64,000 nt of DNA from an uncultured Gammaproteobacteria bacterium (GCA_964599625.1 CAZRGC010000002.1:71883-135882); one strand, 5' to 3'; counted from the stretch's first letter, positions 5,291 through 58,255 are shown. Notes: generated from the sequence alone by a model not told the origin. Numbers and translations: made by a program.

Positions 5291-5304
5291 ATTTATATGA
5301 CTAT

Positions 5305-6528: not shown

Positions 6529-6541
6529 CAACTACAACAAC

Positions 6542-9721: not shown

Positions 9722-9738
9722 GAAGTAAGAAAGTAAAT

Positions 9739-19190: not shown

Positions 19191-19570
19191 TTTGGTTGAT
19201 AGGGGCCTTGTTTTATTTCCATTATTTCCGTATTTTTGTAGAAAGTTACTGAATGTGTTACCTCCATTATCAGCACACTATCGTCTCTTTTAAGTGTCTT
19301 TTCCTCAATGATACCGCCCCTTTTGTCGTAAAAAGTTATTTTAAGCTTTCCTCTTTTAATAATCAAAATTTCGTAAACAGGAGTTTTACTTTTTGACCAG
19401 ACTCTCTCGTGTCTGTGAGGAAGATTGGACTTCTTGACGCCTGATTTGTGAAACCCGATCTGTAGAAATGATGAATTTGGCGTAGGAAAGTATGGAGTGT
19501 TTTTGGGAAATCCTCTGAAAATTATTGCCACCTTTTTTGAACCGGCAAAGATATATTCTTCTTTGTACAT
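19187..19570 (-). CDS. Small cupin-fold protein, possibly a WxcM/FdtA-like sugar isomerase; uncertain.
   Basis: 127 aa with a His-containing motif NLPHRHER and a beta-rich profile. It sits between a methyltransferase and a GT2 in a sugar-modification cassette. Confidence 0.3.
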   Translation of the reverse strand: MYKEEYIFAGSKKVAIIFRGFPKNTPYFPTPNSSFLQIGFHKSGVKKSNLPHRHERVWSKSKTPVYEILIIKRGKLKITFYDKRGGIIEEKTLKRDDSVLIMEVTHSVTFYKNTEIMEIKQGPYQPK

Positions 19571-29900: not shown

Positions 29901-32900
29901 CTGGACAGTTATTGCCGCTTGCGTCACAGACCGCGTTTCCGTTTTGGAACAGATTTACTCCATAGATGTTATCCCAAGGAAGTGAGCCAGACCCCAAATC
30001 ATTTGTTCCTGTTGTTGTTATCGGAATCAAGTCGACATCCTGTGCCACTCGGCCTGTGAATGTGATTGTGTCTGTAATTGCATTACCCAGAGTTGAATCT
30101 CCATTGAGAGTGGTGTTGCCGGTTACGGATAGTCCGTTATTAACCGTTGTTGTTCCGCTACCTGCACCAATACCAAGTGTTGATGCATTAGTAAATATGT
30201 TTGCAGTAGTTTGAGATGTTGTTAGGTCACCACCGTTAACGGCAACGTCGCCTGCTGCGGTAACATTCCCTGAAGAATCAACAGTAAACACGGTACTTCC
30301 TGAGTTATCAAACCTCAAAAAGTTACCTGTGAAGTTGCCACCACCCGCATTGTCAAAATCCATAAAGATTCCATTACCAGAAAATGCATGCCCATCTCCA
30401 CCAGTCCCAAGTTTAACCAAGTTGCCTGTTGTTATCGCACTTGCTGTTGCTTCAAACACATTTCCTGTTGTTATTGCACTTGAGTTTAGTTTTGCTATAT
30501 CTCCACCAGCATTCTCAATTCCAAACACCTGGAATGCAGCACCCGTGGCATTTGAACCAACCGTTAGGTCGTAAGTTGAATTAGCAGGGGAGAGAACTTT
30601 GTTTGCAAGCTGCCACCAGCCTTGGGTTCCACTTGTTGCAGTTGAGGTGATATTCCCCGAACAGGTAAAGTTGCCTGTTGTTCCGTCAAGCGTACAACCT
30701 GTATCTCCACTTCCACCGGAGATTGCTACTAATCCACTGGAACCTGTTGGCCCGATATTTAGTGTTGTTGCGGCTCCTGCAAAGTTGATTGTTGTTGCAT
30801 TGGTATTCAAAAGGTTGGCAGTTCCTGCTGTTGTTGTTATATTTCCACCGTTTGCAGCTATATCATTGGCAACTATATTACCGCTGCCGTCAAAACGGTA
30901 GGTCGTACCTCCGCCAACCGAATAACCTGCCGAATTCTGTATATATCCTGAAACACCTGTCAGAGTATTTGAATTGGGGAGTGTGAATGTTCCTGTTGCT
31001 GTTAAATTAGCTCCGTTTGCAGTGAGTGCCGCTGAACCTCTGGAATTTATAACGACATTGCCAGTTGTTGATCCACCCAAAGTCAGATCCGACATGTTTG
31101 TTGTTGCCAAGTTTCCGTTGCCCGTCAGATATGTGGCTACATTTGCCACTGAACCTGCGATTGTTGCAGTAGGAACTCCAGATGCAACATTTGTGAATGC
31201 AAACTTTGCGGATGTTGTTGCATTTCCCCCTATAAGAAGATCTGTCGAGTTGTTGGTTGGGAAGAGTGCTCCCAGGCTTTGATTCCAGTAACCGGCTCCT
31301 GCAGGACAGTTGGCGCCGCTTGCGTCACAGACCGCATTTCCGTTTTGTACAAAAGCATCGGCATACACGTTGTCCCAAGGAAGCGAACCGCTTCCCAAGT
31401 CATTTGTTCCTGTTGTTGTTATAGGGATTAAATCGCTGTCTTGTGCAACACGACCTGTGAATGTGATTGTGTCTGTGATTGCGTTGCCGAAGACTGAATC
31501 TCCGTTAAGGTTTGTGCTGCCTGTAACACTTAATGCGTTGTTAACTGTTGTTGTTCCGCTACCTGCACCCAAACCAAGTGTTGTTGCATTCAAAAATACG
31601 TTAGCTGTTGTTTGATTAGTTGTAAGGTCGCCCCCGTTTACAGCTACATCACCGGCCGATGTTAGATTGCCGTTTGAATCAACTGTAAACACAGTACTTC
31701 CTGAGTTATCAAATCTCAAAAAGTTACCTGTGAAGTTGCCTCCGCCTGCATTATCGAGGTCTGCAAAGATAGCGTTACCTGAAAAAGAGTGTCCGTCTCC
31801 GCCTGTACCAAGTTTAACTAAGTTACCGGTCGTAATGGCGGAAGCTGTTGCTTCAAATACGTTTCCTGTTGTTATTACTGTTGAGTTAAGTTTGGCAATA
31901 TCACCACCTGTATTCTCGATTCCAAATACTTGGAATGCTGAGCCGGTTGCACTTCCTCCGACTGTTAGGTCGTAAGTTGAGTTAGCAGGGGAGAGAACTT
32001 TGTTTGCAAGCTGCCACCAACCCTGTGTTCCGGATGTTGCAGTTGAGGTGATGTTGCCGGAACAGGTGAAATTTCCTGTTGTTCCGTCAAGCGTACAACC
32101 TGTATCTCCACTTCCACCGGAGATTACAACCGTTCCACTGGAACCTGTTGGCCCGATATTTAGCGTTGTTGCGGCTCCTGCAAAGTTGATTGTTGTTGCA
32201 GTTGAATTTACAAGGTTAAAAGATGTTTGGTTTGTGGTGAGGGTTCCTCCGTTTACCGAGAGCGTATTGTTAACCGTTGTTGTTCCGCTGCCTGCACCAA
32301 TTCCCAAAGTTGTAGCATTTGTGAATAGGTTTGCAGTAGTTTGAGTGGTTGTCAGATCACCACCATTAACTGCAACATCTCCTGAACAGGTTAGATTTCC
32401 TGTAGCGTTTGCAATTGTACAACCTGTTGTGCCGCTTCCTCCCGCTATCTCAACATCTCCGGTTGATGAGTTGTTTAACTGTAAGTTGGCGGCGTTTCCG
32501 GAGTCGATTGTGAATACGCTCGCAGAGTTTGAATTTGTTATGGAATGAGTTCCAGATCCACTGAATGTTATGTCTGCACCTGTTCCGCTTTCTGTTATAC
32601 CTGTTGTTCCTTGAACGGTAAGATTTCCGGCAACAACAGTGGAAGCGTTATTGATTGTTGTTGTTCCGCTTGTGTTTCCGATTGATATTGTTGTTGCTGC
32701 AGCCCCAATATTCAAAGCTGTTGCGTTTGTGTTGAAAACGTTTGCGGTTGATGATGTTGTTGTCAAATTTCCGCTATTGGCCGCCACATCTCCTGCCGCC
32801 GTCATGTTACCGGAGGCATCAACTGTAAATCTTGTGCTTCCTGCGTTATCAAATCTTAAAAAGTTACCGGTAAACGAACTGCCTCCTGCGTTGTCAAAAT

Positions 32901-35900
32901 CCAAAAATATTCCGTTTCCTGTGAAATTGCCGCTATCTCCACCTGTCCCAAGTTTGATTATATTTCCGGATGTTATGGCACTGGCTGTGGCCTCAAATAC
33001 GTTTCCTGTTGTTATTACTGTTGAGTTAAGTTTGGCAATGTCACCATCTGTGTTTTCGATTCCAAACACTTGGAAAGCCGACCCTGTTGCTGTTCCACCA
33101 ATTGCCAAGTCATAAGAGGAGATAGAAGGCGAGATTATCTTGTTGTTTAGCTGCCAATAAGTTGCGTTTACAGGACAGTTGGCACCACTGCTATCACAGA
33201 CATTAAAACCATTTTGTACAAAAGCGTCTGCGTACACATTGTCCCAGGGCAAGGAAGAACTGCCCAAATCATTAGTTCCTGTTGTAGTTATCGGAATTAA
33301 GTCGTTGTCTTGTGCCACTCGTCCCGTGAATGTAATTGTGTCTGTGATTGCGTTTCCAAGAGTTGTATCGCCATTTACAACCAATGCATTATTAACTGTT
33401 GTTGTTCCTGATGCCGCACCCAAGTTAACTACTGTTGCAGCACCTCCAACGTTCAAAGTTGTTGCATTTGAGTTAAAAAGTGTTGCAGTTCCTGTCGAGC
33501 TTGTTGTTAAGTCGGCACCGTTTACCGCTACATCACCTGCAAAAGTTCCTGCATTGGCATTGATGTTTCCGCTTCCGTCGAAATAATAAGTTGTTGCCCC
33601 GCCTACAGAGAAGCCTGCCGACGACTGCAGATAGTTTGCAACACCTGTGAGTGTTATTGAGTTGGGGAGGTTAACGACACCTGTTGTTGTTATGTCACCA
33701 TTTGCTCCAACTGTAAATCTTGTGTTTCCTGCGTTGTCAAATTTAACAAAGTTTCCTGTAAAACTTCCTCCGCCTGTGTTGTCGAAATCTGCGTATATTC
33801 CGTTACCAGTAAAATTCTGATCTCCGCCTTCACCAAGTTTGACCAAGTTCCCCGAAGTTATTGCGGAAGATGTCGCACTCAACACGTTGCCTGTTGTGAT
33901 ACCTGTTGAATTAAGCGTTGCCAAATTGCCGCCAGAAGTTTCCAAAGCGTAGGCTTGGAATTTGGCTGAAGTTGTTGCGGTTCCACCGACTGCCAAATCA
34001 TGTGTAATATTGGCAGGGGAGAGAACTTTGTTGTTAAGTTGCCAATAATTCACGGATGAACTTGCCGGACAGCCCGATCCAGTTATGTCACAGACTGCGT
34101 TACCGTTTTGATACAGGTTTGTTCCGTATATATTTGCCCATTGAAGAGCGCCACTTCCCAAATCATAAGTGTTGTTGGTTATGGGTAAGACGTTTGTGTT
34201 TACTCTTCCCACAAAAGAAATTCCGTCTGTAATGGCATCGCCCAAAGTTGTGTCACCTTTGACCAAGAGAGAATTGTTGAGGGTTGTCGTTCCGGAAATT
34301 GCCCCGATGTTGATTGCAGTTGCAGCACCTGCAAAGTTAACAGTTGTTGAGTTGGTGTTTATTAACGAAAAACTTGTTTCGTCTGTAGTTATCGACGAGC
34401 CATTTACTGCCAATGCATTATTAACTGTTGTTGTTCCGCTGCCTGCACCAATTCCCAAAGTTGATGCATTTGTGAATAAGTTTCCCGTAGTTTGAGTTGT
34501 TGTCAGGTCACCGCCGTTGACCGCAACATCTCCCGCTGCGGTAACATTCCCAGAAGCGTCAACTAAAAAGTTTGTTGCTCCTGCATTATCAAATCTCAAA
34601 AAGTTTCCTGTAAAACTTCCTCCGCCAGTATTGTCAAAATCTGCATAAATTCCATTTCCTGTAAAGTTTTGATTTCCACCCTCGCCGAGTTTGATTATAT
34701 TTCCTGATGTTATGGCACTGGCTGTTGCTTCAAAAACATTTCCTGATGTGATTACACCAGAAGTGATTTTAGCCAGGTTGCCTGTGGTCTTTTCTACTCC
34801 AAACACCTGGAAGGCCGAACCTGTTGCACTTCCTCCAACTGTCAAATCATAAGTGGAATTGGCAGGGGAGAGAACTTTGTTGTTAAGCTGCCACCATCCT
34901 TGAGTTCCGCTTGTAGCCAGTGAGGTGATGCTCCCGGAACAAGTGAAATTTCCGCTGGATCCGTCTAGCGTACAACCTGTGTCTCCGCTTCCACCCGAGA
35001 GTGTTATTACACCAGCGCCTCCGTTTGGACCAATGTTAAGTGTATTGGCAGCGCCTGCAAAATTAATCGTTGTTGCATTTGTGTTAAAAAGTGTGGCACT
35101 CGAAGCACTTGTTGTAAGGTCGCCTCCGTTAACTGCAACATCTCCGCCAAATGTTCCGGCGTTTGCGTTAAGATCTCCGCTTGCAGAAAAGTTGTATGTA
35201 TCACTTCCTCCAACAGATACACCCTGAGATAATCTTAGGAAGTTGCTAACGCCTGTGATTGTGTTTGTGTTGGGGAAGGTAAATGTCCCAACAGTTGTAA
35301 GGTTGGCTCCATTTGCTGTTAGGGCGGCCACACCCCTGGAATTTATGTTGATATTACCTGTTGTTGATCCACCCAAAGTCAGGTCCGACATGTTTGTTGT
35401 TGCAAGATTGCCATTGCCAGTCAGATATGTGGCAACATTAGCGACAGATCCAGCAATGCTTGCGGTGGGAGTTCCTCCGTTAACTCCTGTAAACGCAAAC
35501 TTTGCGGAGCTTGTGGCATTTGAACCTATGAGAACATCTACTGAATTATTTTTGGGGAAGAGGGCTCCGTTTGTTTGTGTCCAGAATATTGAAGCTGCAG
35601 CCGCTGCAGAAGGGTCAACCCAAGACAAAGCCCCGGCACCGTCAGTTTGCAAAATATAACCTGAACTTTGCGAACCAGGCCAGGTGTAGGGGATTCCGCC
35701 AAAAGTTGTAGTACCACTTACAACCAGATTGTTATTTATTGTTGTACTTCCGGTTCCAGCTCCAAGGCTTAGTGACGTTGCGCCACCGCCAATGTTTAAA
35801 GCTGTCACCCCTGAGTTCAGTAAGTTAAATGTTCCCGATGTTGAAGTTATGTCGCCGCCGTTTACCGCCAAATCGCCTGCTGTTGTTGTATTGCCGTTTG

Positions 35901-46803: not shown

Positions 46804-49800
46804 ATGTCCAAGTTTATAAAACACTGCCCAATGAGATATCTAAAGATTGCCCAAGCTGCTCAAAGATTAGGAGTATCCACAAAAACCTTAAGAAGGTGGG
46901 AGAAAAGCGGAATACTCACACCCAGAAGGACTCCGGGAGGCCAAAGAGTTTATCTTGCAAGCTCTATAGAAACCTTTGTAAGGCCGGAGAAACAAACAGG
47001 AAAAACAAAAACAAGATTTGTAGCCAAAACATACGAAGTCAAAAATAGCTTCAATTATAAAAGTTTTGCTTACGGCGGAATTGCGTCGGCATTTGCAGTT
47101 CTTTTGTTCTTTAGTCTTTTTAAAGTTGATTTGAGTTTGAGGCTGCCCCAGGAAAGTTCATCTAACGTATTGGGTGCCAACACACAAAGAAACCCGGTTA
47201 TAGCTTTTGTAGACGATTTGGTGAAGCCTGTATTCGGATTTTTTGCCAATAGCGCCAAAAGGATTGAGCTGGCCCTATTCAGTTTCAATGTTAATCAGGA
47301 TATAAGCCAAGGTCAAACGATTATTCAAACAGCAAGCCAGGTGGGCGGAGGGTCGGAGATAGCAGACAGATCGGTTACTGGTGTAAAGATCGCAATTCAA
47401 ACAGTACTTAACGAAAATATTGCCAGAGGCCAAATCAGCGTGGACAGGTTAGTTTCAAACCTCGTCTTTCCGTCAACATATCTTTTAGATCTCTCAGAAA
47501 TAAAACATACAACAACATCAAATACTGGCTTAATACTTCCAAATACATCAAGTTCATCTCCATCCAAGCCTACAAGCGGTGAAGGATATCTGGCATATGA
47601 CACTTCGGGAAACCAGCTTATCCTTTATAACGGTTCCAACTGGCAGACTATTAGCGGAGGAGGGGGCGGAGGAAGCGGAGATATAACAACTGTCACTGCC
47701 GGGGACGGACTAACCGGCGGGGGTGGCTCAGGAGACCTTACCTTAAACATTGTCGGGGGAAGTGGTTTTTTGGTTTCTGGGGATCAAATTGATTTGGATG
47801 TAACAACTACGGGAACAACATCAACGACATCTTCAAATTCTGGTTTGGAGGTTACAACAGCGGGATTGTCTCTTATGAGAGGTTGTTCCAATACACAAAT
47901 ATTGAAATGGAATGCGAGTACACAGGTGTGGTACTGTGCAGCAGACAATAGCGGAAGTGGCGGATCTTTAGATATAGAAGAGGGTGGAAGCACAGTCGTG
48001 ACCAGCCCAACAGCGATTAACTTTACGGCATCTGAATTTTCTGTCACAGAATCACCAAGTGGAGTCGGTTTGATAGCTATTGATTACGTTAATTCAAAAA
48101 TTAGCAGGTATGATGCCACAGAAGTTCTTACCAACAAAACAATCTCTGCAGGAAGTAACACAATAACAGGTCTTACAAACTCCAACCTTTCCGGAAGTGC
48201 GGGAATAACAAACGCCAACCTCGCAAATTCATCAGTTACCATTAACTCTTCGGGAATCCTCACAGGTGGCGGATCTGTTTCTTTGGGAGGCAATATTACG
48301 CTTGCAGCGACAGAGGCTGACACACTGGCTGCAGTAGTTTCCAGAGGAGCCACCACCACAACTTTAGTTAATTTGAATGGTGGAATAATCTCTCAAGGTG
48401 CTGTTGCAGGAAAAGCGCTTGTGAGAATTGACGAAACTGGGGATCAGAATCTATTGGTTGCAAGCGCTTCAGGAGTTACAAAATTCACATTAGACAGATC
48501 GGGTAATGTTGCAGCCTCCGGAACTGTTACTGGTTCCAACCTCAGCGGCACCAATACAGGTGACCAAACAATCACTTTAACGGGAGATGTAACAGGAAGC
48601 GGAACAGGAAGCTTTGCAACTACGATTGCCACAAACTCAGTTGCACTTACAACAGACACCACAGGTAATTATGTTGCAACAGGAGCCTCGGGGAATGGAG
48701 TTTCTTTGACAGGTGGTGGTTCTGAGGGGGCAACTCTTACCGCTAATCTTGGTGCTTTGACAGGTGATTGGGATCAAACAGGTGCTTTTGATATTGCTCT
48801 CAACAATTCTTCGTCTGAACTCAAGATTTTAGAATCAGGATCAACACCAACCTTGTTCGGCATCTTTGATGTTGGAGATCTGAGCTCATCTGACTCTACA
48901 TTCACTTTCTCTGGGAGTTCTGGTACTGTTTTGACAAGTGCTAACGTTGCATCTGCCCTGTCAGGGTGGGACCAAAATTCCAGTGACGATTTAACAACAG
49001 GCAACTATGGTGCAACCCTCGACTCTGTTTATGTAAATGTTGCCGAGTCGCCAACCTCTGCAGATATTGCAGGAAGTTTTTCGGGAGGACTTACTCTAAA
49101 TTCAAACACAGTTGACGATTCGGAGCTTGTTGATGCACTCACATACACAGGGGCGTTTTCAGTTGGAAATCTTACAATTTCTGACACGAATGTACCTCTT
49201 ACGGGGGCCTCGTTAACTTTCGATTTTAATAATGCCAGCGATAGAACCCTTACAATTGCAAATGCAGGAGCAGGAACTGCAAATTTGTCAGTTGACGGTA
49301 CAATCGCCGCTTCAAACTTCTCAGGTTCATCAAGTGGCACCAATACAGGCGATCAGACTATTACATTAACGGGAGATGTAACAGGAAGTGGAACGGGAAG
49401 CTTTGCAACAACAATTGCAGCCAACTCTGTTGCATTAACAACAGATACGACAGGTAATTATGTTCAAAGCATAACAAACGGAACAGGAATCACAGGAGGC
49501 GATGGTGGCGCAGAAGGATCAACCCTAACATTAGCAGTTGATCAAGCTGCAAATTTTACGTTAACAGGAAATAACACATTTACACCTTCCTCAACAAACG
49601 ATTTAACAATAAATCTGGATGCAGACTCAACGCTTTCAGAAGTTTTCTCAAGTAGCACAAATTCAACAAGTGCAGTGACTCAATCTATAACAAACTCTGC
49701 ATCAAGTGGAACAATTACAGTTAACGGAAACGATATAACTTTGGTAGGAACTGACAATGCAGGCGGTGCTAACACCATTAATGCTTTCAAATTTGAAAAC

Positions 49801-52800
49801 GTTACCGCACACACAAATAACACCTTTAACGGACTAAACTTTGGAACGGGTTATACAAACTTTTTGACCTCGGGAACAATTGCAATCGTTGCCGATGGGA
49901 CAATAACAGGTGCAACAATCTCAGGCGGAAGCAACACATTGTCTAATATTGGTAACTCAAGCCTTACTAACTCATCTATTACTATTAATTCTTCGGGGAT
50001 TTTGACAGGCGGTGGATCGGTTTCCTTGGGTGGAAACATTACACTAACGGCAACCGAGGCTGATACTTTGGCAAGTGTGACTGGGCGCGGTGCTACAACA
50101 TCAACTGCCCTAACACTATCTAATGCATCAAACAGTATCACTGTAGGCACTTTAACAGCAACAGGTGGAACGATTAACGGAACTGTAATTGGTGGATCAA
50201 CACCTGCCGCGGGAACATTTACAACTCTAACCGCGAATGGAGATGTGACACTTGGGGATGCAATAACAGACAACATTACTTTTACAGGGCGTGTGGCACA
50301 GGATAGTGACTTGGTACCAATTGGCACAACCGGGACAAATGATCTGGGAAGTGGATCTCTTCCTTGGGATAACATTTACGCAAATGCAATAACTCAAAAC
50401 GGAAACCTGGTTTGTGACGCAAGCGGCGCCAACTGTCCCGCAGGGGCAGGCTACTGGGGTCAGACTCTTGGCGCGCTTTATGCAAACAACAATACCACAG
50501 ACCTTTTGATCGGTGGTAATGCTACAACTTCTGCCAAGTTTGCATTTACAAATGTATTAACAGGAACTCCAACTGCTTCTATCTCGGGAACTACTGCAAA
50601 TGTCGCGACTTATTTAACTGGTGAGGGGAATTTGGCAACAACAAATATGCAACCTTTGACAATTGGTGGTTCAACTACCGGTTCTGTTCAGCTAAACCCC
50701 AAAGGTTCAACGGGGCTCTTTGTAAGTGGTAGTGGAAATGTAGGAATTGGCACAACATCAAACACTGGCGGGTATGTTCTTGATGTTATCGGACATGCAA
50801 GATCCTCCGGATACTTTTTTGGAGACAATGGGTCGTTTGTATCTTTCACGGCAGGTGGGGCCTATCTTGGTGATTCAAGCTACGCAGCAGGTGGTGGAAT
50901 TGGGTATGGTTCTAGTAGAACGCAAATTTGGTCTGGAAGCGGATTTCCGCTCACGTTTGGAACAGCCGGAACTGAACATATGAGACTTAGTGCTGCAGGT
51001 GGTTTGTCGCTTGGCGCATCTTATTTAACAACTGATGCTGGTGCAGGCAACGCAATTATAACCGGCTCACTTGGTATAGGCACTTCTGGTCCTGATGCAA
51101 AACTCGATTCACTTTCTACTGCCGGTGAGCAGCTAAGGCTTACTTATGCTGACGGGTCGACTTATTCAAGTTTTACAACCAACTCCAGCGGTGATTTAAC
51201 CATTGCACCTTCAGGTGGCGATACGAACATAACAGGCAACTTATCGTCAACAGGGATAGTCACAGGATCTAATTTAAGTGGCACAAACACAGGTGATCAG
51301 ACAATTACCTTAACAGGTGATGTGACTGGAAGCGGAACAGGAAGCTTTGCAACAACAATCTCAGCCAACTCTGTTGAGCTTTCCACCGATACAACCGGCA
51401 ATTACGTGGCAACAGGAGCTTCTGGAAACGGAGTTGCCCTTACCGGTGGAGGCTCTGAAGGTGCAACATTGACTGCTAATCTTGGTGCTTTGACAGGTGA
51501 TTGGGATCAAACGGGGGCATTTGATATTGTTCTTAATAATTCATCATCTGAACTCAAAATCTTAGAATCAGGATCAACGCCAACCTTGTTCGGTATCTTT
51601 GATGTCGGAGATTTAAGTTCATCTGATTCCACATTTACTTTTTCTGGTTCATCCGGAACTGTTTTAACTTCAGCGAACTATGCAGGGACACTTGACTCTG
51701 TTTACGTTAATGTCGCTGAGTCACCTGCGGCTGGGGATGTTGCAGGTAGTTTCTCAGGAGGACTTACTCTAAATTCAAACACCGTCGATGATTCAGAACT
51801 TGTGGATGCTTTGACTTATACAGGTGCTTTTTCGGTGGGTAACCTTACAATTTCAGACACGAGCGTGCCTCTGACTGGGTCTTCTTTCACCTTCGACTTC
51901 AATAACGCCAGCGACAGAACTTTGACAATTGCAAACGCAGGGGCAGGTACTGCAAATTTGTCAGTTGACGGAACAATTTCTGCTTCCAACTTTTCAGGAT
52001 CGTCCAGTGGAACAAACACAGGCGACCAAACAATTACTCTAACAGGTGATGTAACCGGAACAGGAACGGGATCGTTTGCAACAACAATTGCAGCCAACTC
52101 TGTTGCATTAACAACAGATACGACAGGTAATTATGTCCAGTCTATTACGAACGGAACAGGAATAACTGGCGGTGACGGCGGCGGCGAAGGTTCTACTTTA
52201 ACACTTGCAGTTGACCAGGCAGCCAACTTTACCTTAACAGGTAATAATGCATTTACCCCATCATCTACAAATGATCTTACGATCAATTTAGATGCAGACT
52301 CAACTCTTGCTGAGGTGTTCACGAGTGGAACTAATTCAACAAGCGCAAATACAGTATCTTTAACAAATTCAGCATCAAGCGGAACAGTTGGTATCAAAGG
52401 CCTCGACTTTACATTTGTGGGAACCGACAACGCAGGTGGAGCAAACACAATTACAGGTATAAATTTTGGTGACGCAACAGCACACACCAACAACACTTAC
52501 AATGGAATTACATTTGGAACAGGGTATAACAACTTCCTGACCTCTGGAACTATAAACATTGCCGCGAATGGAACTATAACAGGCGCAACAATATCAGGTG
52601 GAAGCAACACCCTTTCCGATATCGACAACTCAAGCCTTACTAACTCATCTATTACTATTAATTCTTCTGGGATTTTGACAGGCGGCGGATCGGTTTCCTT
52701 GGGTGGAAACATCACACTCACCGCAACCGAAGCAGATACTTTGGCAGCAGTTGTGTCACGCGGCGCCGCAACCACAACTCTCGTAAACTTGAACGGCGGA

Positions 52801-55800
52801 ATAATTTCCCAAGGAGCAGTTACAGGAAAAGCTTTGGTAAGGCTGGATGAGACTGGCGATCAAAATATATTTGTCGCCTCTGCTGCGGGCGCTTTCAGAT
52901 TTGCCGTTGCCAACGACGGAGCTTTGGAGCTAAGAAACTCTGAAACAATATCGAACTCATCAAATGGTGCCATTGCTTTTACAGGTGTTGGTGGATCCAA
53001 CAATGGTGCTTTGGAGATAGACCTTGAGACGAATTCGGTACCTACTTTGACATCTTCAACTGACACGTCAATCGGAATTGACGAAAACCTTCAGTTCATT
53101 GGCGCTCAGTCTATAACCACTTCAACAGGAGCTTTGACTTTGCAACCTGCTTCAGGGAGCAATTTAAATGTAACGCTTTCAGGAACGGGGGATTTTGCCG
53201 TAAATACAAATCAGCTTTATGTTGATACTAGCACGGGGTTAGTGGGAATCGGAACTTCGTCATTAATCTCCGGCGCAGAATTAACCGTAAAGGCTGCAAG
53301 CGGCAACTCTGATTTAGTATTGACTGAGAGCGGAGGTACTTATTCTTGGGACTTTTTCGTTGAAACTGGTGGCAGGGCGGGTTGGTATGACATTACCAAT
53401 AATAGAAATCCTTTTTACATGGAAGCTGGTGCGGCAAACAACTCCTTCTATATTGATTCAAGTGGTGCAGTTGGCATTGGCAAAGCTGATCCTGAACACA
53501 AACTCCAAGTAGAAAGTAGCACTGTTGGTAAGGCTTTGGTTGTAATAAATGATACAGATTCCGATCAGAATTTGTTTGTAGCATCTTCTGCGGGCAGTTT
53601 TAGGTTCTCAATTGCGAACGATGGGACTTTGTCACTTAGAAACTCCGAGACTGTTTCCAATTCAACAAACGGCTCAATTACACTTTCTGACTCGGGTGGG
53701 CAATCTGTAACATTTGACTTGGACGCAACTAACCCGACACTCACAAGTTCAACTGGAACATTTGAGGTTGGCTCAACACTCACAGCGGGAACTGTTGATA
53801 TCAATGGCGGTGCAATTGACGGTACTACAATTGGCGGATCATCTGCCGCTTCCGGAACATTTACAACTCTGACATCAACCGGCACTGTTGACCTCTCAAG
53901 TGATTCAGGCGCAGATACAATTACAATCGGTCAGAGTGGAACAACGGATGACACTGTAACAATCGCTGGTGATATATCTTTGACTGATGATCAATGGAGT
54001 GTGTCTGCGGCCGGTGTTGGTAGCTTTATAACCGGCTCTTCTATTGGTTCACTCACTTTTACCACAAACAATATTGCCGACTCGGGCGCGTTGACAATAA
54101 GATCTGCGACTTCAAACGCCTTAACACTTGACTCTGGAACAACAGGTACCGTCAATTTGGGAACCGGTAACAATGCAAAAACCATAGCAATCGGCACAGG
54201 AAATGCAGGTAATACAATAAATGTTGGCACAGACAACACTGTTTCGGACACGATTACGATTGGTAGTGCCTTGGATAACGTAGCAATTACCGGCGATGAT
54301 TGGTCCATAACGTCTGCCGGTGTTCTCACGGTAGCCAGTTGTACCGGCTGTGGTGGTGGGGGTGGAACATTGGACTCTGTTTACGAAACAGGCAATGCTT
54401 TAACAACATCTGACAATAGAGATGTAGCACTTGTATTTGCAGACACAACAACCGATTCCAACTTCAATATTGATCTTGAGGCGGATAACACTGTTACTAT
54501 TACAAGAAATGCCACAGCCTCCACAGAAACACCGTCTCAACTTGTACTTCTGGAAAATGCAGATGCTGACGTAACAGTTACTGCAGGGTTAAGCATTTTG
54601 GAATCGGGTGGAAACATTGGAACAGGGTTAAATATTGGTTCTGGTATGACAATCGGAATAAATGCCAACGCAAACACCATAGAGAATATTGGCAATTCAG
54701 GAACAGATTTTGATTCCTCAGGAGGTCTTACCCTGGCTTCTACACTCACACTAACCAACAACACCATTACTTGTACAGGATGTGTGGACGCAACCGACTT
54801 GGCTGCAAATTCGGTTGATGATTCCGAACTTGCGGACACACTGAGTTACACCGGTACTTTGACAATTGCTTCAAATGCGCTGGCCGTTAACTCTGATTCT
54901 ATTACTGCAGACGGCGCAACTCTTACCATAAATGCAGCAGGGAACGTGGATGTTCAAGACGCACTTAATGCAGATTCAATCACCTCTGATGCCGGTGTAT
55001 CAATTGCCGCAGGGCAAAGTTATACAGGCGCCGGTGCAGTTAGTGTAACTTCGGCAACGGGAGCAAACGCTTTAACTTTGGATTCTGGTTCTACTGGTAA
55101 TGTCAACCTTGGAACGGGTAATAATGCAAAAACCATAGCAATCGGCACAGGGAATGCAGGCAATACAATAAACTTGGGCACCAACGACACCGTCAGCGAC
55201 ACCATTGCAATCGGAAGTGCTTTGGACAACGTTTCGATTACAGGCGATCAGTGGTCTATTACAGATGCAGGTGTTCTTACTGTTGCAAGTTGTAGCGGTT
55301 GTGGAGGCGGAGGATCAACATTGCAAGCTGCATATGATGCTTCAAGCGGTAATACAATATTAACCACAACAGGCAGAAACATTGCATTCACTCTGGGTGA
55401 GGTTGCATCACCGACATCCTTCACGCTGACAAATCAAGATACTGCCGGAACAACTGCTTTTGGGCTAACAAATTCTATTGCATCGGGAACACTAACAAAC
55501 GGTATTTTAATAGATCAAACAGGTGCAGGAACACTTACGTCTGCCATTAAAATAGTGGAAACAGCAGGAACAATAACCGATGGTCTTGTTATCTCGGGAA
55601 CTTTATCCAACATTCTTAATAGTGACTCGATTGATATAACGGGTGCGGGTGCAATTACGGGAGCTACAGGAGTCGGAACAACAACTTTAACATCAACCGG
55701 GACAACTAATATCGGAAGCAATTCGGGAGCTGTAACAATCGATTCAACAGGCTCTTTAACTATTAACGATACTGTAGTTTCGTTAGCAAATCAGTCTACA

Positions 55801-58254
55801 GATTTTGAAATAATCGACAACGCAGCTTCGGCTTTTACAATTACCCAAGGTTCAAATGAATATTTTGGAATAACTACAAGTAACGGTGCTCCAGTTGTAA
55901 ATCTAAACACACCTGAAGCAACGGGTACTATCAACATTGGTTCAACGAACTTCGCAAGAACCATAAACTTGGGGACTGGCACAGGTGCAGACGCAATCAA
56001 TATCGGCACAGGAGCAACAACCGCAGACACTCTGACATTCGGAAACACAGGTGTTGCAACAACATTCACATTTAACTCTGGTGCAACAACACAAACACCA
56101 GTCACATTTAATCTGGATGCTTTGACACAGGGAACGGGAATTGACCTTTCTCTGGATGGACTTACAACTGGAACCGGTTTGAAAATTGACGACAATACGG
56201 GAGCAGGGCTCACATCAGGGACTTTGGTATATGTAAATTCAGTGTCGACAGCCTTGACTTCTCCCACAAACGGTGGATCTTTGGCCTATTTTAATTGGAA
56301 TCCTGCAAGCACAACAAGCGCAACAGGTGACTTGTTCAGGATCAATATTGGTTCGAATGGAAGTACTTCCGGTAATTTGTTCAATATTACAGACAACGGA
56401 TCAACACTTTTTTCGGTGTCAGAAAACTTAATTACATCTGCGCTTCCGCACAGTTTTTCGGCCGTTGGCGACGTGGCGATATCTTACGACTTGGTATTCA
56501 CCAATCAAACATCATCATTGATTGACAGCTATGGTCCGTTAACGATTAGGGCTGGTGAAAGTTTTGAAAACAACAATCTTACTCTTACAACATTTGGAAC
56601 AGGTGCGATAATTGCAGACACAAAGTTTTCGTTCGATACACAGTTAACTTTGGGTGACAACACAACACCTTCTGTTACATCCGGAAACTATTATATTGAG
56701 GCCAATTCTACAAACAGACTCGTTACAAACTTTACCAATGGTACTGCGGGTCAAGTTATATTTATTGAAGTAGGCACTGCAAATTTCGACCTTGACTGTA
56801 CAAGCTCAAGTATAAACTGTGGCACAACCGACATGACCGGGCTTGCAGCAGGCGACCAAATATTTTTGATTTACGACGGCTCAACTTGGAATTTATTGGG
56901 CTGGATGGATGCATCGGCCAACAACAACGACAACACAGACGGGGTTGATATAGCAGAGTTCTTCCCAAGTTTGCAGAATCTTACTGCTGGTGAAGTTGTA
57001 AAGATTGATATAAATAATCCAGAACACGTTGTCAGGTCTGCTTCAGCTTACGAAAATATGGTGGTGGGAATCGTATCTACTCAGCCAGGTATAACTTTGG
57101 GAAGTAATAATGGCAATGCTTATGCAATAGCACTTGCCGGACGTGTTCCTGTTCAAATATCAAACCTTTCAGAAAATATTTCCCCCGGTGACTATGTAAC
57201 AACATCAACTCTTTCCGGAAAAGCTATGAAAGCAACGGGTACAGGGAGGGTGATTGGACAGGCGCTTGAAAACTGGAGCCCGTCCTCTGGGAAGTCGGAG
57301 ATAGTTGTATTTATTAATAATAGTTGGTTTGAAAACATGCCGACGATTGACCAAGGTGGCAACTTAAGTGTGGACTTGAGTGCCGAAAACATAATTGCTA
57401 CGAACATCAAGACATCAAGAATTCAGCCGTCTGAGGGGAAAACTGATATCTCGATACAAATTGGCAGCAGTTCGACTCCTTCCGGAAGACTTAAAATTGA
57501 AAATGTTTTGGGTGATACAGTTTTTGAAGTCGACGATGGGGGAGACGCAACAATATCTGGAGATCTGCATACCGTTGGGGACTTGTATGCAACTAACGTT
57601 CACTCTCAGAATATTGAAGATATCGAGGCGTTATTGGCCCAAGTTCAATCGGATCAGGCACTTTTGTTGGCGTCAAATTCCGGAATATTCAGCGCAACGA
57701 CTTCAGCGAGCCTTAATGACCTGATGACATCTGATTTATATGTGACAAACCAGGCTGCGGTTTATTCACTCTCTGTCAGTTCCAGTTTGGCAGTGGGTGG
57801 TGATTTGGTAATTCAAAGTCTTGATTCTTCGGTAAACACTTTGGTGTCTCCGCTTAAGATTCAATCACTGGCACTGGCACCGGTAGAGATAATGGGAGGA
57901 CTTATTAAGATTGATACATTGGGTAATGCAGAAATTGAAGGAAACCTTGCTGTTAAGGGTGCCCTTAGCACCTCAGGCATAATAATCACCGGAGACACTG
58001 CAGGCAAAGCAAAAGTTCCCGAAGGTGAAATTGAAGTTGTACTTCAAAACCCGAATATAAAAGAGGGGACATTGGTATTTGTGACTCCAACATCACCAAC
58101 CAGTAACGGTCTATATATCAAAAGCCAGGAGGTGGGCAGTGTTACTGTGGGCTTTGTTCTTGCAGAGGACTTTGATGTAACGTTTAATTGGTGGATTGTG
58201 GGTACGAGTGGTCAGGCTGAGGCATCGGGTTCAGGCGTCCTGGTTAATCCTTAA
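46804..58254 (+). CDS. Giant (3816 aa) membrane-anchored surface protein. It has an N-terminal MerR-type HTH, one TM helix and a T/G/N/S-rich extracellular region. It is paralogous to the 20914..38097 product.
   Basis: The N-terminus LKIAQAAQRLGVSTKTLRRWEKSGILTPRRTPGGQRVY is a MerR/excisionase-like HTH. TM is YGGIASAFAVLLFFSLF. One copy of ITFTGRVAQDSDLVPIGTTGTNDLGSGSLPWDNIY...CDASGANCPAG. The C-terminal ~330 aa are colinear with the other giant and end in FNWWIV. Confidence 0.85.
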   Translation: MSKFIKHCPMRYLKIAQAAQRLGVSTKTLRRWEKSGILTPRRTPGGQRVYLASSIETFVRPEKQTGKTKTRFVAKTYEVKNSFNYKSFAYGGIASAFAVLLFFSLFKVDLSLRLPQESSSNVLGANTQRNPVIAFVDDLVKPVFGFFANSAKRIELALFSFNVNQDISQGQTIIQTASQVGGGSEIADRSVTGVKIAIQTVLNENIARGQISVDRLVSNLVFPSTYLLDLSEIKHTTTSNTGLILPNTSSSSPSKPTSGEGYLAYDTSGNQLILYNGSNWQTISGGGGGGSGDITTVTAGDGLTGGGGSGDLTLNIVGGSGFLVSGDQIDLDVTTTGTTSTTSSNSGLEVTTAGLSLMRGCSNTQILKWNASTQVWYCAADNSGSGGSLDIEEGGSTVVTSPTAINFTASEFSVTESPSGVGLIAIDYVNSKISRYDATEVLTNKTISAGSNTITGLTNSNLSGSAGITNANLANSSVTINSSGILTGGGSVSLGGNITLAATEADTLAAVVSRGATTTTLVNLNGGIISQGAVAGKALVRIDETGDQNLLVASASGVTKFTLDRSGNVAASGTVTGSNLSGTNTGDQTITLTGDVTGSGTGSFATTIATNSVALTTDTTGNYVATGASGNGVSLTGGGSEGATLTANLGALTGDWDQTGAFDIALNNSSSELKILESGSTPTLFGIFDVGDLSSSDSTFTFSGSSGTVLTSANVASALSGWDQNSSDDLTTGNYGATLDSVYVNVAESPTSADIAGSFSGGLTLNSNTVDDSELVDALTYTGAFSVGNLTISDTNVPLTGASLTFDFNNASDRTLTIANAGAGTANLSVDGTIAASNFSGSSSGTNTGDQTITLTGDVTGSGTGSFATTIAANSVALTTDTTGNYVQSITNGTGITGGDGGAEGSTLTLAVDQAANFTLTGNNTFTPSSTNDLTINLDADSTLSEVFSSSTNSTSAVTQSITNSASSGTITVNGNDITLVGTDNAGGANTINAFKFENVTAHTNNTFNGLNFGTGYTNFLTSGTIAIVADGTITGATISGGSNTLSNIGNSSLTNSSITINSSGILTGGGSVSLGGNITLTATEADTLASVTGRGATTSTALTLSNASNSITVGTLTATGGTINGTVIGGSTPAAGTFTTLTANGDVTLGDAITDNITFTGRVAQDSDLVPIGTTGTNDLGSGSLPWDNIYANAITQNGNLVCDASGANCPAGAGYWGQTLGALYANNNTTDLLIGGNATTSAKFAFTNVLTGTPTASISGTTANVATYLTGEGNLATTNMQPLTIGGSTTGSVQLNPKGSTGLFVSGSGNVGIGTTSNTGGYVLDVIGHARSSGYFFGDNGSFVSFTAGGAYLGDSSYAAGGGIGYGSSRTQIWSGSGFPLTFGTAGTEHMRLSAAGGLSLGASYLTTDAGAGNAIITGSLGIGTSGPDAKLDSLSTAGEQLRLTYADGSTYSSFTTNSSGDLTIAPSGGDTNITGNLSSTGIVTGSNLSGTNTGDQTITLTGDVTGSGTGSFATTISANSVELSTDTTGNYVATGASGNGVALTGGGSEGATLTANLGALTGDWDQTGAFDIVLNNSSSELKILESGSTPTLFGIFDVGDLSSSDSTFTFSGSSGTVLTSANYAGTLDSVYVNVAESPAAGDVAGSFSGGLTLNSNTVDDSELVDALTYTGAFSVGNLTISDTSVPLTGSSFTFDFNNASDRTLTIANAGAGTANLSVDGTISASNFSGSSSGTNTGDQTITLTGDVTGTGTGSFATTIAANSVALTTDTTGNYVQSITNGTGITGGDGGGEGSTLTLAVDQAANFTLTGNNAFTPSSTNDLTINLDADSTLAEVFTSGTNSTSANTVSLTNSASSGTVGIKGLDFTFVGTDNAGGANTITGINFGDATAHTNNTYNGITFGTGYNNFLTSGTINIAANGTITGATISGGSNTLSDIDNSSLTNSSITINSSGILTGGGSVSLGGNITLTATEADTLAAVVSRGAATTTLVNLNGGIISQGAVTGKALVRLDETGDQNIFVASAAGAFRFAVANDGALELRNSETISNSSNGAIAFTGVGGSNNGALEIDLETNSVPTLTSSTDTSIGIDENLQFIGAQSITTSTGALTLQPASGSNLNVTLSGTGDFAVNTNQLYVDTSTGLVGIGTSSLISGAELTVKAASGNSDLVLTESGGTYSWDFFVETGGRAGWYDITNNRNPFYMEAGAANNSFYIDSSGAVGIGKADPEHKLQVESSTVGKALVVINDTDSDQNLFVASSAGSFRFSIANDGTLSLRNSETVSNSTNGSITLSDSGGQSVTFDLDATNPTLTSSTGTFEVGSTLTAGTVDINGGAIDGTTIGGSSAASGTFTTLTSTGTVDLSSDSGADTITIGQSGTTDDTVTIAGDISLTDDQWSVSAAGVGSFITGSSIGSLTFTTNNIADSGALTIRSATSNALTLDSGTTGTVNLGTGNNAKTIAIGTGNAGNTINVGTDNTVSDTITIGSALDNVAITGDDWSITSAGVLTVASCTGCGGGGGTLDSVYETGNALTTSDNRDVALVFADTTTDSNFNIDLEADNTVTITRNATASTETPSQLVLLENADADVTVTAGLSILESGGNIGTGLNIGSGMTIGINANANTIENIGNSGTDFDSSGGLTLASTLTLTNNTITCTGCVDATDLAANSVDDSELADTLSYTGTLTIASNALAVNSDSITADGATLTINAAGNVDVQDALNADSITSDAGVSIAAGQSYTGAGAVSVTSATGANALTLDSGSTGNVNLGTGNNAKTIAIGTGNAGNTINLGTNDTVSDTIAIGSALDNVSITGDQWSITDAGVLTVASCSGCGGGGSTLQAAYDASSGNTILTTTGRNIAFTLGEVASPTSFTLTNQDTAGTTAFGLTNSIASGTLTNGILIDQTGAGTLTSAIKIVETAGTITDGLVISGTLSNILNSDSIDITGAGAITGATGVGTTTLTSTGTTNIGSNSGAVTIDSTGSLTINDTVVSLANQSTDFEIIDNAASAFTITQGSNEYFGITTSNGAPVVNLNTPEATGTINIGSTNFARTINLGTGTGADAINIGTGATTADTLTFGNTGVATTFTFNSGATTQTPVTFNLDALTQGTGIDLSLDGLTTGTGLKIDDNTGAGLTSGTLVYVNSVSTALTSPTNGGSLAYFNWNPASTTSATGDLFRINIGSNGSTSGNLFNITDNGSTLFSVSENLITSALPHSFSAVGDVAISYDLVFTNQTSSLIDSYGPLTIRAGESFENNNLTLTTFGTGAIIADTKFSFDTQLTLGDNTTPSVTSGNYYIEANSTNRLVTNFTNGTAGQVIFIEVGTANFDLDCTSSSINCGTTDMTGLAAGDQIFLIYDGSTWNLLGWMDASANNNDNTDGVDIAEFFPSLQNLTAGEVVKIDINNPEHVVRSASAYENMVVGIVSTQPGITLGSNNGNAYAIALAGRVPVQISNLSENISPGDYVTTSTLSGKAMKATGTGRVIGQALENWSPSSGKSEIVVFINNSWFENMPTIDQGGNLSVDLSAENIIATNIKTSRIQPSEGKTDISIQIGSSSTPSGRLKIENVLGDTVFEVDDGGDATISGDLHTVGDLYATNVHSQNIEDIEALLAQVQSDQALLLASNSGIFSATTSASLNDLMTSDLYVTNQAAVYSLSVSSSLAVGGDLVIQSLDSSVNTLVSPLKIQSLALAPVEIMGGLIKIDTLGNAEIEGNLAVKGALSTSGIIITGDTAGKAKVPEGEIEVVLQNPNIKEGTLVFVTPTSPTSNGLYIKSQEVGSVTVGFVLAEDFDVTFNWWIVGTSGQAEASGSGVLVNP
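46831..46960 (+). other. MerR-family helix-turn-helix DNA-binding domain at the cytoplasmic N-terminus of the giant protein.
   Basis: MRYLKIAQAAQRLGVSTKTLRRWEKSGILTPRRTPGGQRVYLASSI fits the MerR HTH pattern (..a...GVs..TLR.WE..GLl.P.R...g.R.Y). About 40 aa separate it from the TM helix. Confidence 0.6.
48540..50080 (+). repeat. Intragenic duplicated block, copy 1 (about 1.5 kb).
   Basis: Copy 1 encodes GTNTGDQTITLTGDVTGSGTGSFATTIA...INSSGILTGGGSVSLGGNITLTATEADTLA. It is colinear with 51280..52760 and has identical DNA patches of 50-60 nt. Confidence 0.7.
51280..52760 (+). repeat. Intragenic duplicated block, copy 2.
   Basis: Same module order as 48540..50080. About 85-95% nt identity with fully identical patches, e.g. 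acaacaattgcagccaactctgttgcattaacaacagatacgacaggtaattatgt. Confidence 0.7.
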
Positions 58255-58255
58255 T

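What the first reader, a model, noticed from the sequence alone, without database searches (positions are those of the whole stretch)
57380..58254. Conserved C-terminal ~350-aa domain ending in FNWWIV shared by both giant proteins
The first giant's C-terminus (ITVQIGSATESGRLAITN ... NIHSENLDQIRDILTQVQEDQALL ... ADLYVTNQAALNSLSVTQTATIGNDLVIAS ... SEPLKIQDLALAPVEIMAGLVTIDTSGNVAIAGNL ... FNWWIVQTE; nt 20914-22100) is colinear with the second giant's C-terminus (ISIQIGSSSTPSGRLKIEN ... NVHSQNIEDIEALLAQVQSDQALL ... SDLYVTNQAAVYSLSVSSSLAVGGDLVIQS ... VSPLKIQSLALAPVEIMGGLIKIDTLGNAEIEGNL ... FNWWIVGTS). In N-terminally anchored fibres the C-terminus is the distal tip, so this conserved module is a candidate host-binding or oligomerisation tip domain. 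It could alternatively be a secretion or anchoring signal.
Basis: seen in the sequence. Interest (0 to 1): 0.55.

Follow-up and report, generated by a model that had tools for sequence, protein, structure and literature searches.

The report
Constant C-terminal module of giant fibres
Both giant membrane-anchored surface proteins end in the same ~300-400-residue module, which belongs to a very large, undescribed family in ultra-small (CPR) bacteria and sits just after a phage-type self-cleaving assembly domain, so it is more likely a generic assembly or pro-domain piece than the host-binding tip.

Summary
The C-termini of the two giants align at 42.5% identity over 320 columns (E 5e-55).

The module defines a family of at least 2,806 protein clusters. 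Nearly all named members are Patescibacteria, mainly Microgenomates. The module is always at the extreme C-terminus, and Pfam, NCBIfam, PHROGs and PDB sequences do not contain it.

Carriers share one architecture:
- a cytoplasmic DNA-binding-like N-terminus (MerR or integrase-SAM-like) and one transmembrane helix;
- a highly variable fibre;
- one of three mutually exclusive junction domains (Peptidase_S74, phi29-gp12-type Peptidase_G2, or an unknown "DPPY" domain);
- the constant module.

The catalytic motifs of the S74 and G2 junctions are conserved. Giant 2 carries V|DIAEFF aligned on the phi29 gp12 S691|D692 cleavage site. Giant 1 has the DPPY domain.

The module models as a helix, a beta-rich stalk and a confident terminal beta-sandwich that resembles the C-terminal domains of phage tailspikes and depolymerases (K1-lyase_C type).

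Best reading (about 0.5): a constant trimerisation and folding nucleus that extends an autoproteolytic intramolecular chaperone and is severed from the mature fibre. The variable domain upstream would then be the real tip. A retained, generic lectin-like tip is not excluded. I rate it a new variant of a known kind.

The parts
46804..58254 (+). Giant 2 (G2), 3816 aa: MerR HTH, one TM, variable fibre, Peptidase_G2-like junction, constant C-terminal module
46843..46974 (+). G2 N-terminal MerR-type HTH (aa 14-57), cytoplasmic-type domain
   Evidence: Pfam PF00376 E 6e-13 and PF13411
47062..47121 (+). G2 single TM-like segment (aa ~87-106), the only one in the protein
   Evidence: hydropathy scan
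56701..56889 (+). G2 Phage_depo_C-like beta-sandwich (aa ~3300-3362), just upstream of the predicted cleavage site; candidate tip of the mature fibre
   Evidence: Pfam PF25692 E 1.5e-5, 25.8 bits against a cut-off of 25
56926..57336 (+). G2 junction domain, phi29-gp12-type (Peptidase_G2-like) intramolecular-chaperone cleavage domain (aa 3375-3511)
   Evidence: family HMM hit; the family profile matches phi29 gp12 684-809, E 7.5e-12; PF11962 hits in relatives
56944..56964 (+). V-DIAEFF motif (D3382, E3385), aligned on the phi29 gp12 S691|D692-FAE695-YF autocleavage site; predicted cut between V3381 and D3382
57355..58206 (+). G2 copy of the constant C-terminal module (aa 3518-3801), followed by a 15-aa tail to nt 58251
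57973..58206 (+). G2 terminal beta-sandwich ending in FNWWIV (aa ~3724-3801)
   Evidence: AF2 pLDDT ~91; Foldseek match to C-terminal sandwiches of tailspikes
20914..38097 (-). Giant 1 (G1), 5727 aa: integrase-SAM-like N-terminus, one TM, variable repeat fibre, 'DPPY' junction, constant module
37807..37869 (-). G1 single TM-like segment (aa ~77-97)
22168..22527 (-). G1 'DPPY' junction domain (aa 5191-5310; GGGTGKIDVGTVDPPYTINGKKYATY...ISYRLTGPRFD). It occupies the same slot as S74 or G2 in relatives; function unknown
   Evidence: 47-52 family members carry it; no match in Pfam, PHROGs, PDB or by hhalign
20917..22095 (-). G1 copy of the constant module, full family extent (aa ~5335-5727)
21586..21657 (-). 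Predicted 24-residue alpha-helix of the module (aa 5481-5504), candidate coiled-coil segment
   Evidence: AF2 model, H182-205
21160..21291 (-). Sub-module present in G1 and most relatives (…ASGSAxF…) but deleted in G2 (aa 5603-5646)
20917..21153 (-). G1 terminal beta-sandwich ending in FNWWIVQTE (aa 5649-5727)
   Evidence: AF2 pLDDT 91-98; Foldseek: 7eea rmsd 2.2 A over 73 residues, 9k4a, 4ru4, 7w1c, 6ct8; K1-lyase_C PF24146 in 5 of 42 relatives

Best explanation
The shared region is the constant C-terminal module of a Patescibacteria-specific family of phage-tail-fibre-like surface fibres anchored by their N-terminus.

Shown: each carrier has a cytoplasmic DNA-binding-like N-terminus, one TM helix, a highly variable fibre body, one of three interchangeable junction domains, and then this module. 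The module consists of a beta hairpin, a helix, a beta-rich stalk and a terminal beta-sandwich of the tailspike-C-terminal type.

Shown: two of the three junction domains are the autoproteolytic intramolecular-chaperone (IMC) domains of phage tailspikes, Peptidase_S74 and Peptidase_G2, and their catalytic motifs are conserved.

Inferred: after Sec export of three unfolded chains held in the membrane by their N-termini, the module trimerises first and sets the register. Folding then zips back through the IMC into the fibre. The junction domain then cuts the chain, in G2 predicted between V3381 and D3382. The ~435-aa fragment (IMC plus module) is thereby severed from the mature fibre, and probably shed. 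The functional distal tip would then be the variable domain just upstream, which in G2 is a Phage_depo_C-like sandwich. For G1 the same fate is inferred only by analogy, because its DPPY junction domain is uncharacterised.
For: - Homology is real and the position is always C-terminal.
- The family is large: 2806 representative clusters at E<=1e-3 and 741 at E<=1e-30.
- Named members are almost all Microgenomates or Patescibacteria. None were found in IMG/VR or GenBank phages.
- Junction slot: of 153 members with at least 200 aa upstream, 67 are G2-like (plus about 6 that the HMM missed), 47 are DPPY and 29 are S74. The three are mutually exclusive and end about 20-60 aa before the module.
- Pfam confirms S74 and G2 in members.
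- The S-x4-K dyad is kept in 29 of 29 S74 members, and D-x-A-E in about 68 of 72 G2-like members.
- The family profile aligns G2's VDIAEFF on the phi29 gp12 S691|DFAEYF site.
- The module is constant while the fibre is variable: 99.5% against 5.9% of pairs alignable.
- Fold matches are all to phage tail fibres or tailspikes, with the terminal sandwich matching their C-terminal domains.
- Literature: S74 and gp12 IMCs nucleate trimer folding from the C-terminus and are then released (PMC4690869, PMC3357383). S74 self-cleavage also operates in cell-encoded Bdellovibrio MAT fibres (PMC10769870). C-terminal sandwiches of depolymerases drive trimerisation (PMC10653864).
Against: - No cleavage has been observed; it is inferred from conserved motifs only.
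- Known S74 and G2 IMCs are complete and sufficient at about 130-165 aa and end the protein. An extra 300-470 aa with its own stalk and knob is more than a chaperone appears to need, and looks like a small fibre in its own right.
- G1's junction domain has no known activity.
- G2's own junction scores below Pfam's threshold for PF11962. The link rests on a family profile.
- The AF2 models are monomers of what is probably an intertwined trimer, and Foldseek E-values against PDB are weak (best 4e-3).
- After cleavage the fragments could stay associated non-covalently.
Confidence: 0.5

Rival explanations
1. Retained distal tip. The module stays on the fibre, either uncleaved or held non-covalently after cleavage. 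Its terminal beta-sandwich would be a lectin-like knob binding a ligand common to many hosts (for example a conserved glycan or peptidoglycan), or it would simply cap the trimer.
For: - Topology puts it at the distal end.
- The terminal sandwich resembles the R2 pyocin fibre foot, H-type lectins and tailspike C-terminal domains, some of which are proposed carbohydrate binders (PMC10653864).
- The module has the layout of a small fibre with a stalk and a knob.
- G1's junction (DPPY) is not known to cleave.
Against: - Extreme conservation across thousands of clusters, and between two otherwise unrelated giants in one genome, is the opposite of what receptor-binding tips show.
- About two thirds of carriers place a catalytically intact self-cleaving domain between the fibre and the module.
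Confidence: 0.25
2. Docking or sorting module. The constant C-terminus is recognised by a conserved cell-surface partner for anchoring, glycosylation or handover. The protein is then tethered or processed at its C-terminal end.
For: - A constant module on variable cargo is the logic of sorting signals.
- In 24 of 58 related loci the next gene encodes a 640-680-aa multi-TM protein with a weak Wzy_C (O-antigen-ligase-like) match and TPR repeats.
- Glycosylation-type genes follow G1.
Against: - The window has no homologue of the Wzy_C/TPR protein.
- There is no LPXTG motif, no C-terminal TM and no known sorting motif.
- At 300-470 aa with several folded domains, the module is far larger than known sorting signals.
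- The proteins already have an N-terminal anchor.
Confidence: 0.1
3. The giants are prophage or phage tail-fibre genes, and the module is an ordinary phage fibre C-terminus.
For: All fold matches are to phage fibres or spikes. S74, G2, Phage_depo_C and K1-lyase_C are phage-typical domains.
Against: - The N-terminal HTH plus TM anchor is family-wide.
- Housekeeping genes lie between the two giants: LeuRS, ComEA/ComEC and ArgRS, read from the translations.
- No Pfam hits to phage structural proteins among the ORFs that were scanned.
- No sequence relatives in 2.9 million IMG/VR contigs or 50,697 phage records.
Confidence: 0.03

Closest known systems
C-terminal intramolecular chaperone of Bacillus phage phi29 pre-neck appendage gp12 (Peptidase_G2, PF11962)
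   Same: G2 carries a homologous domain (aa 3375-3511). Its D-x-A-E motif aligns on the gp12 S691|D692 cleavage site. It lies near the C-terminal end of a trimeric fibre-like protein. Its known role is to nucleate trimer folding and then be cut off (PMC3357383, PMC4690869).
   Different: In phi29 the 163-aa IMC ends the protein. Here it is followed by a further ~300-aa conserved module, which is the finding. The carrier is a membrane-anchored cellular protein, not a virion part.
Peptidase_S74 C-terminal intramolecular chaperone domain (endosialidase K1F, T5 pb1; PF13884)
   Same: It occupies the same junction slot in 29-30 family members, with the SDxxxK dyad intact.
   Different: It is not present in either giant of this window. 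In phages and in Bdellovibrio it terminates the protein. hhalign finds no relation between S74 and the module.
Bdellovibrio bacteriovorus mosaic adhesive trimer (MAT) fibres (PMC10769870)
   Same: These are cell-encoded, phage-fibre-like surface fibres of a bacterium that lives on other bacteria. They have mosaic variable regions, and one subgroup has a self-cleaving S74. Bd2133 appears among the weak fold hits.
   Different: MATs have a signal peptide plus a conserved ~130-aa N-terminal beta domain, and they end either in S74 or in a variable tip. The CPR family has a cytoplasmic HTH plus TM anchor and a constant module after the cleavage domain.
C-terminal beta-sandwich domains of phage tailspikes and depolymerases (K1-lyase_C PF24146; Pam1 7eea, Sf6 TSP, LKA1 gp49, K64-1 S2-4)
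   Same: The terminal ~80 residues adopt the same kind of sandwich at the extreme C-terminus. PF24146 hits 5 of 42 relatives.
   Different: G1 and G2 themselves do not reach Pfam significance, and sequence identity is about 10-20%. The roles of these domains (trimerisation or glycan binding) are themselves unsettled (PMC10653864).
MYRF ICA domain (eukaryotic S74 homologue)
   Same: It is a precedent for an S74 domain that is internal, with more protein downstream, and that couples trimerisation to self-cleavage in a membrane protein with a DNA-binding domain (own knowledge; cited within PMC10769870).
   Different: The domain order and topology differ. In MYRF, cleavage frees the DNA-binding part; here the cleavage site is extracellular and far from the HTH.

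Membership tests
Peptidase_G2 IMC (phi29 gp12 type), for the G2 junction just upstream of the module | Sequence similarity to PF11962 / gp12 residues 692-854 | tested here: met
   A profile of 72 family junctions that includes G2 hits gp12 684-809, E 7.5e-12. PF11962 passes the cut-off in relatives P0096, P0098 and P0195. G2 alone is below Pfam's reporting threshold.
Peptidase_G2 IMC (phi29 gp12 type) | Conserved acidic residues at the cleavage site (gp12 S691|D692...E695) | tested here: met
   G2 has V3381-D3382-I-A-E3385-F-F. D-x-A-E is kept in about 68 of 72 members.
Peptidase_G2 IMC (phi29 gp12 type) | The domain forms the extreme C-terminus of the precursor | tested here: not met
   305 further residues (the module and its tail) follow it in G2.
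Peptidase_G2 IMC (phi29 gp12 type) | Autocatalytic cleavage and release after trimer assembly | not testable with these tools
   Needs expression, mutagenesis or proteomics.
Peptidase_S74 CIMCD | PF13884 match with the SDxxxK dyad in the window's proteins | tested here: not met
   No S74 hit in G1 or G2. It is present only in other family members.
K1-lyase_C / tailspike C-terminal beta-sandwich (for the last ~80 aa) | Pfam PF24146 match | tested here: inconclusive
   No hit for G1 or G2 at E<=1. 5 of 42 aligned relatives hit it, best E 1.7e-5. P0191 matches at residues 1004-1074 of 1076.
K1-lyase_C / tailspike C-terminal beta-sandwich | Same fold at the extreme C-terminus of a trimeric fibre or spike | tested here: met
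   Foldseek: 7eea rmsd 2.2 A over 73 residues, prob 1.00, E 4e-3; 7w1c prob 0.99; 9k4a, 4ru4 and 4urr also match. BFVD gives several 'K1 lyase C-terminal domain-containing' phage proteins at E 1e-5 to 1e-7. E-values against PDB are weak.
Bdellovibrio MAT fibre superfamily | Signal peptide followed by a conserved ~130-aa beta-rich N-terminal domain, with the C-terminus either S74 or a variable tip | tested here: not met
   G1 and G2 start with SAM-like or MerR domains plus a TM and end in a constant module.
C-terminal sorting signals (LPXTG/sortase, C-terminal TM anchor, T9SS-type CTD) | LPXTG motif plus hydrophobic tail, or a C-terminal TM | tested here: not met
   The sequences end ...FNWWIVQTE and ...FNWWIVGTSGQAEASGSGVLVNP. 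Each giant has a single TM-like segment, and it is N-terminal.

The most novel reading that the evidence does not exclude
The module, with its three interchangeable upstream domains, is a new kind of fibre-maturation cassette. Under this reading the uncharacterised DPPY domain would be a third, unrecognised class of self-cleaving intramolecular chaperone. The severed IMC-plus-module trimer would not be discarded; it would stay gripped on the fibre end as a detachable 'breakaway' cap or knob, or be released as a free trimeric lectin. That would give ultra-small episymbiotic bacteria a shed-on-demand attachment tip on fibres whose cytoplasmic end is a DNA-binding domain.
Probability: 0.15. Interest if true: 0.75.

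Novelty: new variant of a known kind. Interest (0 to 1): 0.55.

Why it matters
How CPR/Patescibacteria recognise and hold on to host cells is largely unknown. Giant surface proteins are prime suspects, but they are annotated only as 'hypothetical'.

This analysis defines a family-wide architecture for thousands of them and links them to phage fibre assembly chemistry through S74 and G2 self-cleavage. It also relocates the likely host-specificity determinant to the variable domain upstream of the cleavage site, rather than the conserved end.

It gives practical tools as well:
- a C-terminal sequence handle for finding such fibres in metagenomes;
- a precise, testable cleavage prediction (G2 V3381|D3382);
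- a candidate new junction domain (DPPY) whose activity can be tested.

If the module is only an extended pro-domain, the result is a useful annotation rather than a surprise.

Tried and rejected
- Pfam, PHROGs and NCBIfam scans of the last ~530 aa of both giants found nothing for the module itself.
- A PDB sequence search with the family profile gave 0 hits at E<=10. Single-sequence PDB searches with the DPPY and G2-like regions gave nothing meaningful.
- hhalign of the S74 alignment against the module, and of DPPY against S74 or G2-like, showed no relation. The apparent G2-like-versus-module hit was an artefact of overlapping extracted segments.
- An IMG/VR scan and tblastn against GenBank phages found no relatives. 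The prophage reading was rejected.
- Compositional or chance similarity was rejected on E 5e-55 with compositional adjustment.
- A sortase, LPXTG or C-terminal TM anchor was rejected by inspection.
- A conserved downstream partner was considered. A Wzy_C-like/TPR protein follows the gene in 24 of 58 related loci, but it is absent from this window.
- Literature searches for CPR giant proteins with S74 or tail-fibre features found no description of this family in the held library.
- The first AF2 run, with a 19-sequence alignment, was poor in the middle region (pLDDT 63). A second run with 86 sequences improved to 76.9.

Full report
**Observation.** The window holds two giant ORFs: G1 at 20914..38097 (-), 5727 aa, and G2 at 46804..58254 (+), 3816 aa. 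BLASTP with compositional adjustment aligns G1 5416-5726 with G2 3530-3801 at 42.5% identity over 320 columns, E 5e-55 and 9e-63 on the excised ends. The only other similarity between the two proteins is a 101-residue repeat unit at 61% identity. So the shared C-terminal module is real and far beyond chance or composition. G2 lacks a ~44-residue sub-module present in G1, and G2 has 15 residues after FNWWIV where G1 has 3.

**Family.** A word-indexed search with the G2 end found only 17 relatives, mostly fragments on short contigs. All ended in FNWW(I/V)(V/I) plus 2-4 residues.
- An exhaustive profile search found 2806 representative clusters at E<=1e-3 and 741 at E<=1e-30. Carrier lengths run from about 200 (fragments) to 5657 aa.
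- In the 161 sequences I could inspect, the module ends within 5 residues of the C-terminus in 130 and within 20 residues in 159.
- Source names and a scan of one genome per species place the family almost entirely in Patescibacteria, chiefly Microgenomates (Woese-, Gottesman-, Shapiro-, Roizman-, Blackburn- and Pacebacteria). ENA records titled 'uncultured Gammaproteobacteria' look like generic labels.
- One contig (CAZRJH010000004.1) carries both giants' counterparts in the same relative orientation, so it is a close relative of the source organism.
- No relatives were found in IMG/VR or GenBank phages.
- Pfam, NCBIfam, PHROGs and PDB sequences do not contain the module.

**Context and topology.** From the translations I read LeuRS, ComEA, ComEC and ArgRS between the two giants, so this is a cellular genome. 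These names come from my reading of the sequences; no domain search was run on them. G2 begins with a MerR-type HTH (PF00376, E 6e-13) followed by its only TM-like segment at aa ~87. G1 begins with an integrase-SAM-like segment followed by its only TM-like segment at aa ~77. Among 79 family members longer than 1200 aa, 55 have the G1-type N-terminus and 12 the MerR type, and 62 of those 67 have a TM at residues 31-200.

**The key finding: the junction slot.** Immediately upstream of the module, ending about 20-60 residues before it, members carry one of three mutually exclusive domains.
- Of 153 members with at least 200 aa upstream, 67 have a phi29-gp12-like domain (about 6 more were missed by my HMM but show the motif), 47 have a strongly conserved unknown domain I call DPPY, and 29 have Peptidase_S74.
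- Pfam independently reports PF13884 (S74) and PF11962 (Peptidase_G2) at these positions in members.
- Catalytic motifs are conserved. The S-x4-K dyad is present in 29 of 29 S74 members, and D-x-A-E in about 68 of 72 G2-like members.
- A profile of the G2-like junctions matches phi29 gp12 residues 684-809 (E 7.5e-12). It puts the family motif on the gp12 sequence WS|DFAEYF, which is the S691|D692 site counted from the phi29 record. Window G2 reads GV|DIAEFF, with D3382 at nt 56947-56949.
- G1 has the DPPY domain (aa 5191-5310), which has no detectable relation to anything tested.

In phages, both S74 and gp12-type domains are C-terminal intramolecular chaperones. They nucleate trimer folding and are then cut off (PMC4690869, PMC3357383). 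S74 self-cleavage has also been shown in cell-encoded Bdellovibrio MAT fibres, where S74 terminates the protein (PMC10769870). In the CPR family the cleavage domain is not terminal; the module follows it.

**Mosaic test.** I compared 94 members pairwise. The module is alignable over at least half its length in 99.5% of 4371 pairs (median 38.6% identity). The 400 residues upstream of the junction are alignable in only 5.9%. The module is thus the constant part and the fibre body the variable part. In G2, the domain directly before the predicted cut is a Phage_depo_C-like beta-sandwich (PF25692). That is a domain type found at the ends of phage depolymerases.

**Structure.** AF2 with 86 sequences gave mean pLDDT 76.9 for G1 aa 5300-5727. 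The model shows:
- a hairpin;
- a poorly defined repeat stretch;
- a small beta unit;
- a 24-residue helix;
- a beta-rich stretch (pLDDT 83-95);
- a terminal beta-sandwich (pLDDT 91-98).

Foldseek against PDB matched the sandwich to C-terminal domains of the Pam1, Sf6 and LKA1 tailspikes, K64-1 and K1 depolymerases and the R2 pyocin fibre. Probabilities were high but E-values weak, best 4e-3. BFVD gave 65 hits at E<=1e-3; the named ones are phage tail-fibre- or tailspike-like proteins and many of the rest are unnamed. Several are annotated as K1-lyase C-terminal domain proteins. PF24146 hits 5 of 42 relatives. The monomer models cannot show the expected trimer.

**Interpretation.** The best-supported reading (about 0.5) is that the module is a generic trimerisation and registration nucleus. 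It extends an autoproteolytic intramolecular chaperone and is severed from the mature fibre, so the variable upstream domain is the real tip.
- Shown: homology, C-terminal position, family architecture, junction domains with conserved catalytic motifs, the constant-versus-variable pattern, and the tailspike-type terminal fold.
- Inferred: trimerisation, the order of folding, cleavage and release, and the extension to G1's DPPY class.
- Main rival (about 0.25): the module is retained as a generic lectin-like tip or cap. The module's size and fibre-with-knob layout argue for this.
- Other rivals: a docking role (about 0.1), suggested only by a Wzy_C-like/TPR neighbour in 24 of 58 related loci that is absent here. 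A prophage origin is unlikely (about 0.03).

**Novelty.** The components are known kinds: phage-like trimeric fibres, S74 and G2 IMCs, and tailspike C-terminal sandwiches. The constant post-IMC module, its three-way interchangeable junction including an unknown domain, and the HTH-TM-anchored giant carriers were not found in any library or paper I could search. I rate it a new variant of a known kind, with interest 0.55.

Noticed in passing
window 9-12946 and 16041-17279 (+): Tandem array of about 12 mutually homologous ORFs (326-502 aa; pairwise 21-53% identity). Most have one N-terminal hydrophobic segment. None has a Pfam hit at 1e-5. This is a paralogous family of secreted or anchored proteins of unknown function.
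   Followed up: partly
window 46843-46974 (G2), 37873-38097 (G1) and ORF 38104-38628 (-): Both giants start with cytoplasmic DNA-binding-type domains (MerR HTH; integrase-SAM-like) ahead of the TM. A 174-aa ORF with two Phage_int_SAM-like domains sits directly upstream of G1. The N-terminal pattern is family-wide (55 SAM-like and 12 MerR of 79 members). The layout resembles ToxR-type membrane-tethered regulators on a giant fibre; its function is unknown.
   Followed up: partly
window 58196-63193 (+); likely true start ATG at 58256: G3, a 1665-aa protein with seven Laminin_G_3 (ConA-like lectin) domains and an N-terminal hydrophobic segment. It starts 2 nt after the G2 stop. A LamG-repeat protein follows the module-bearing gene in 11 of 58 related loci. 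G1 also contains a LamG domain homologous to G3.
   Followed up: partly
related loci such as L003, L004, L022 (ORF 5447-7489 in L022): In 24 of 58 related loci the gene just downstream of the module encodes a 640-680-aa multi-TM protein with a weak Wzy_C (O-antigen-ligase-like) match plus TPR repeats. No homologue is present in this window.
   Followed up: partly
window 14096-15670 (+), 17272-20298 (-): Glycosylation-type genes lie next to the 3' end of G1: a class I methyltransferase (19570-20298), GT2 (18435-19190), a DegT/EryC1 aminotransferase (17272-18438), and a 9-TM PMT_2-like GT-C candidate (14096-15670; 25.7 bits against a cut-off of 26.1). The fibres may be glycosylated.
   Followed up: no
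family members P0008, P0101, P0191 (not in the window): Intein splicing domains (PF14890) occur inside 4 of 42 family fragments. In P0008 the intein ends (…GIIAHN|T) exactly where the module begins. These are inteins or BIL-type Hint domains in surface-fibre genes.
   Followed up: no
L022 3600-3760 (Woesebacteria Ch104a complete genome CP055308): The fibre gene is split into two ORFs (at least 1133 aa and 501 aa) by a frame change right at the S74 catalytic motif, which reads …FDKRLKTNLKYV in the other frame. This is either an assembly error or pseudogene, or a natural two-piece version with the IMC and module made separately.
   Followed up: partly
window 35284-35586 (-) and 50452-50754 (+): Second shared segment between the giants (G1 838-938 and G2 1217-1317, 61% identity): the unit DAITDxITFTGRVAQDxDLxPIxTTGTNDLGSxSLPWDNxY…CDxSGxNCPAG. 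It recurs many times in G1 and looks like a phage-fibre-like repeat junction.
   Followed up: no
window 20323-20844 (-): A 173-aa secreted-looking, Cys-rich-ended protein lies directly downstream of G1, with only weak MgpC and haemagglutinin-repeat similarity (E 0.004-0.01).
   Followed up: no
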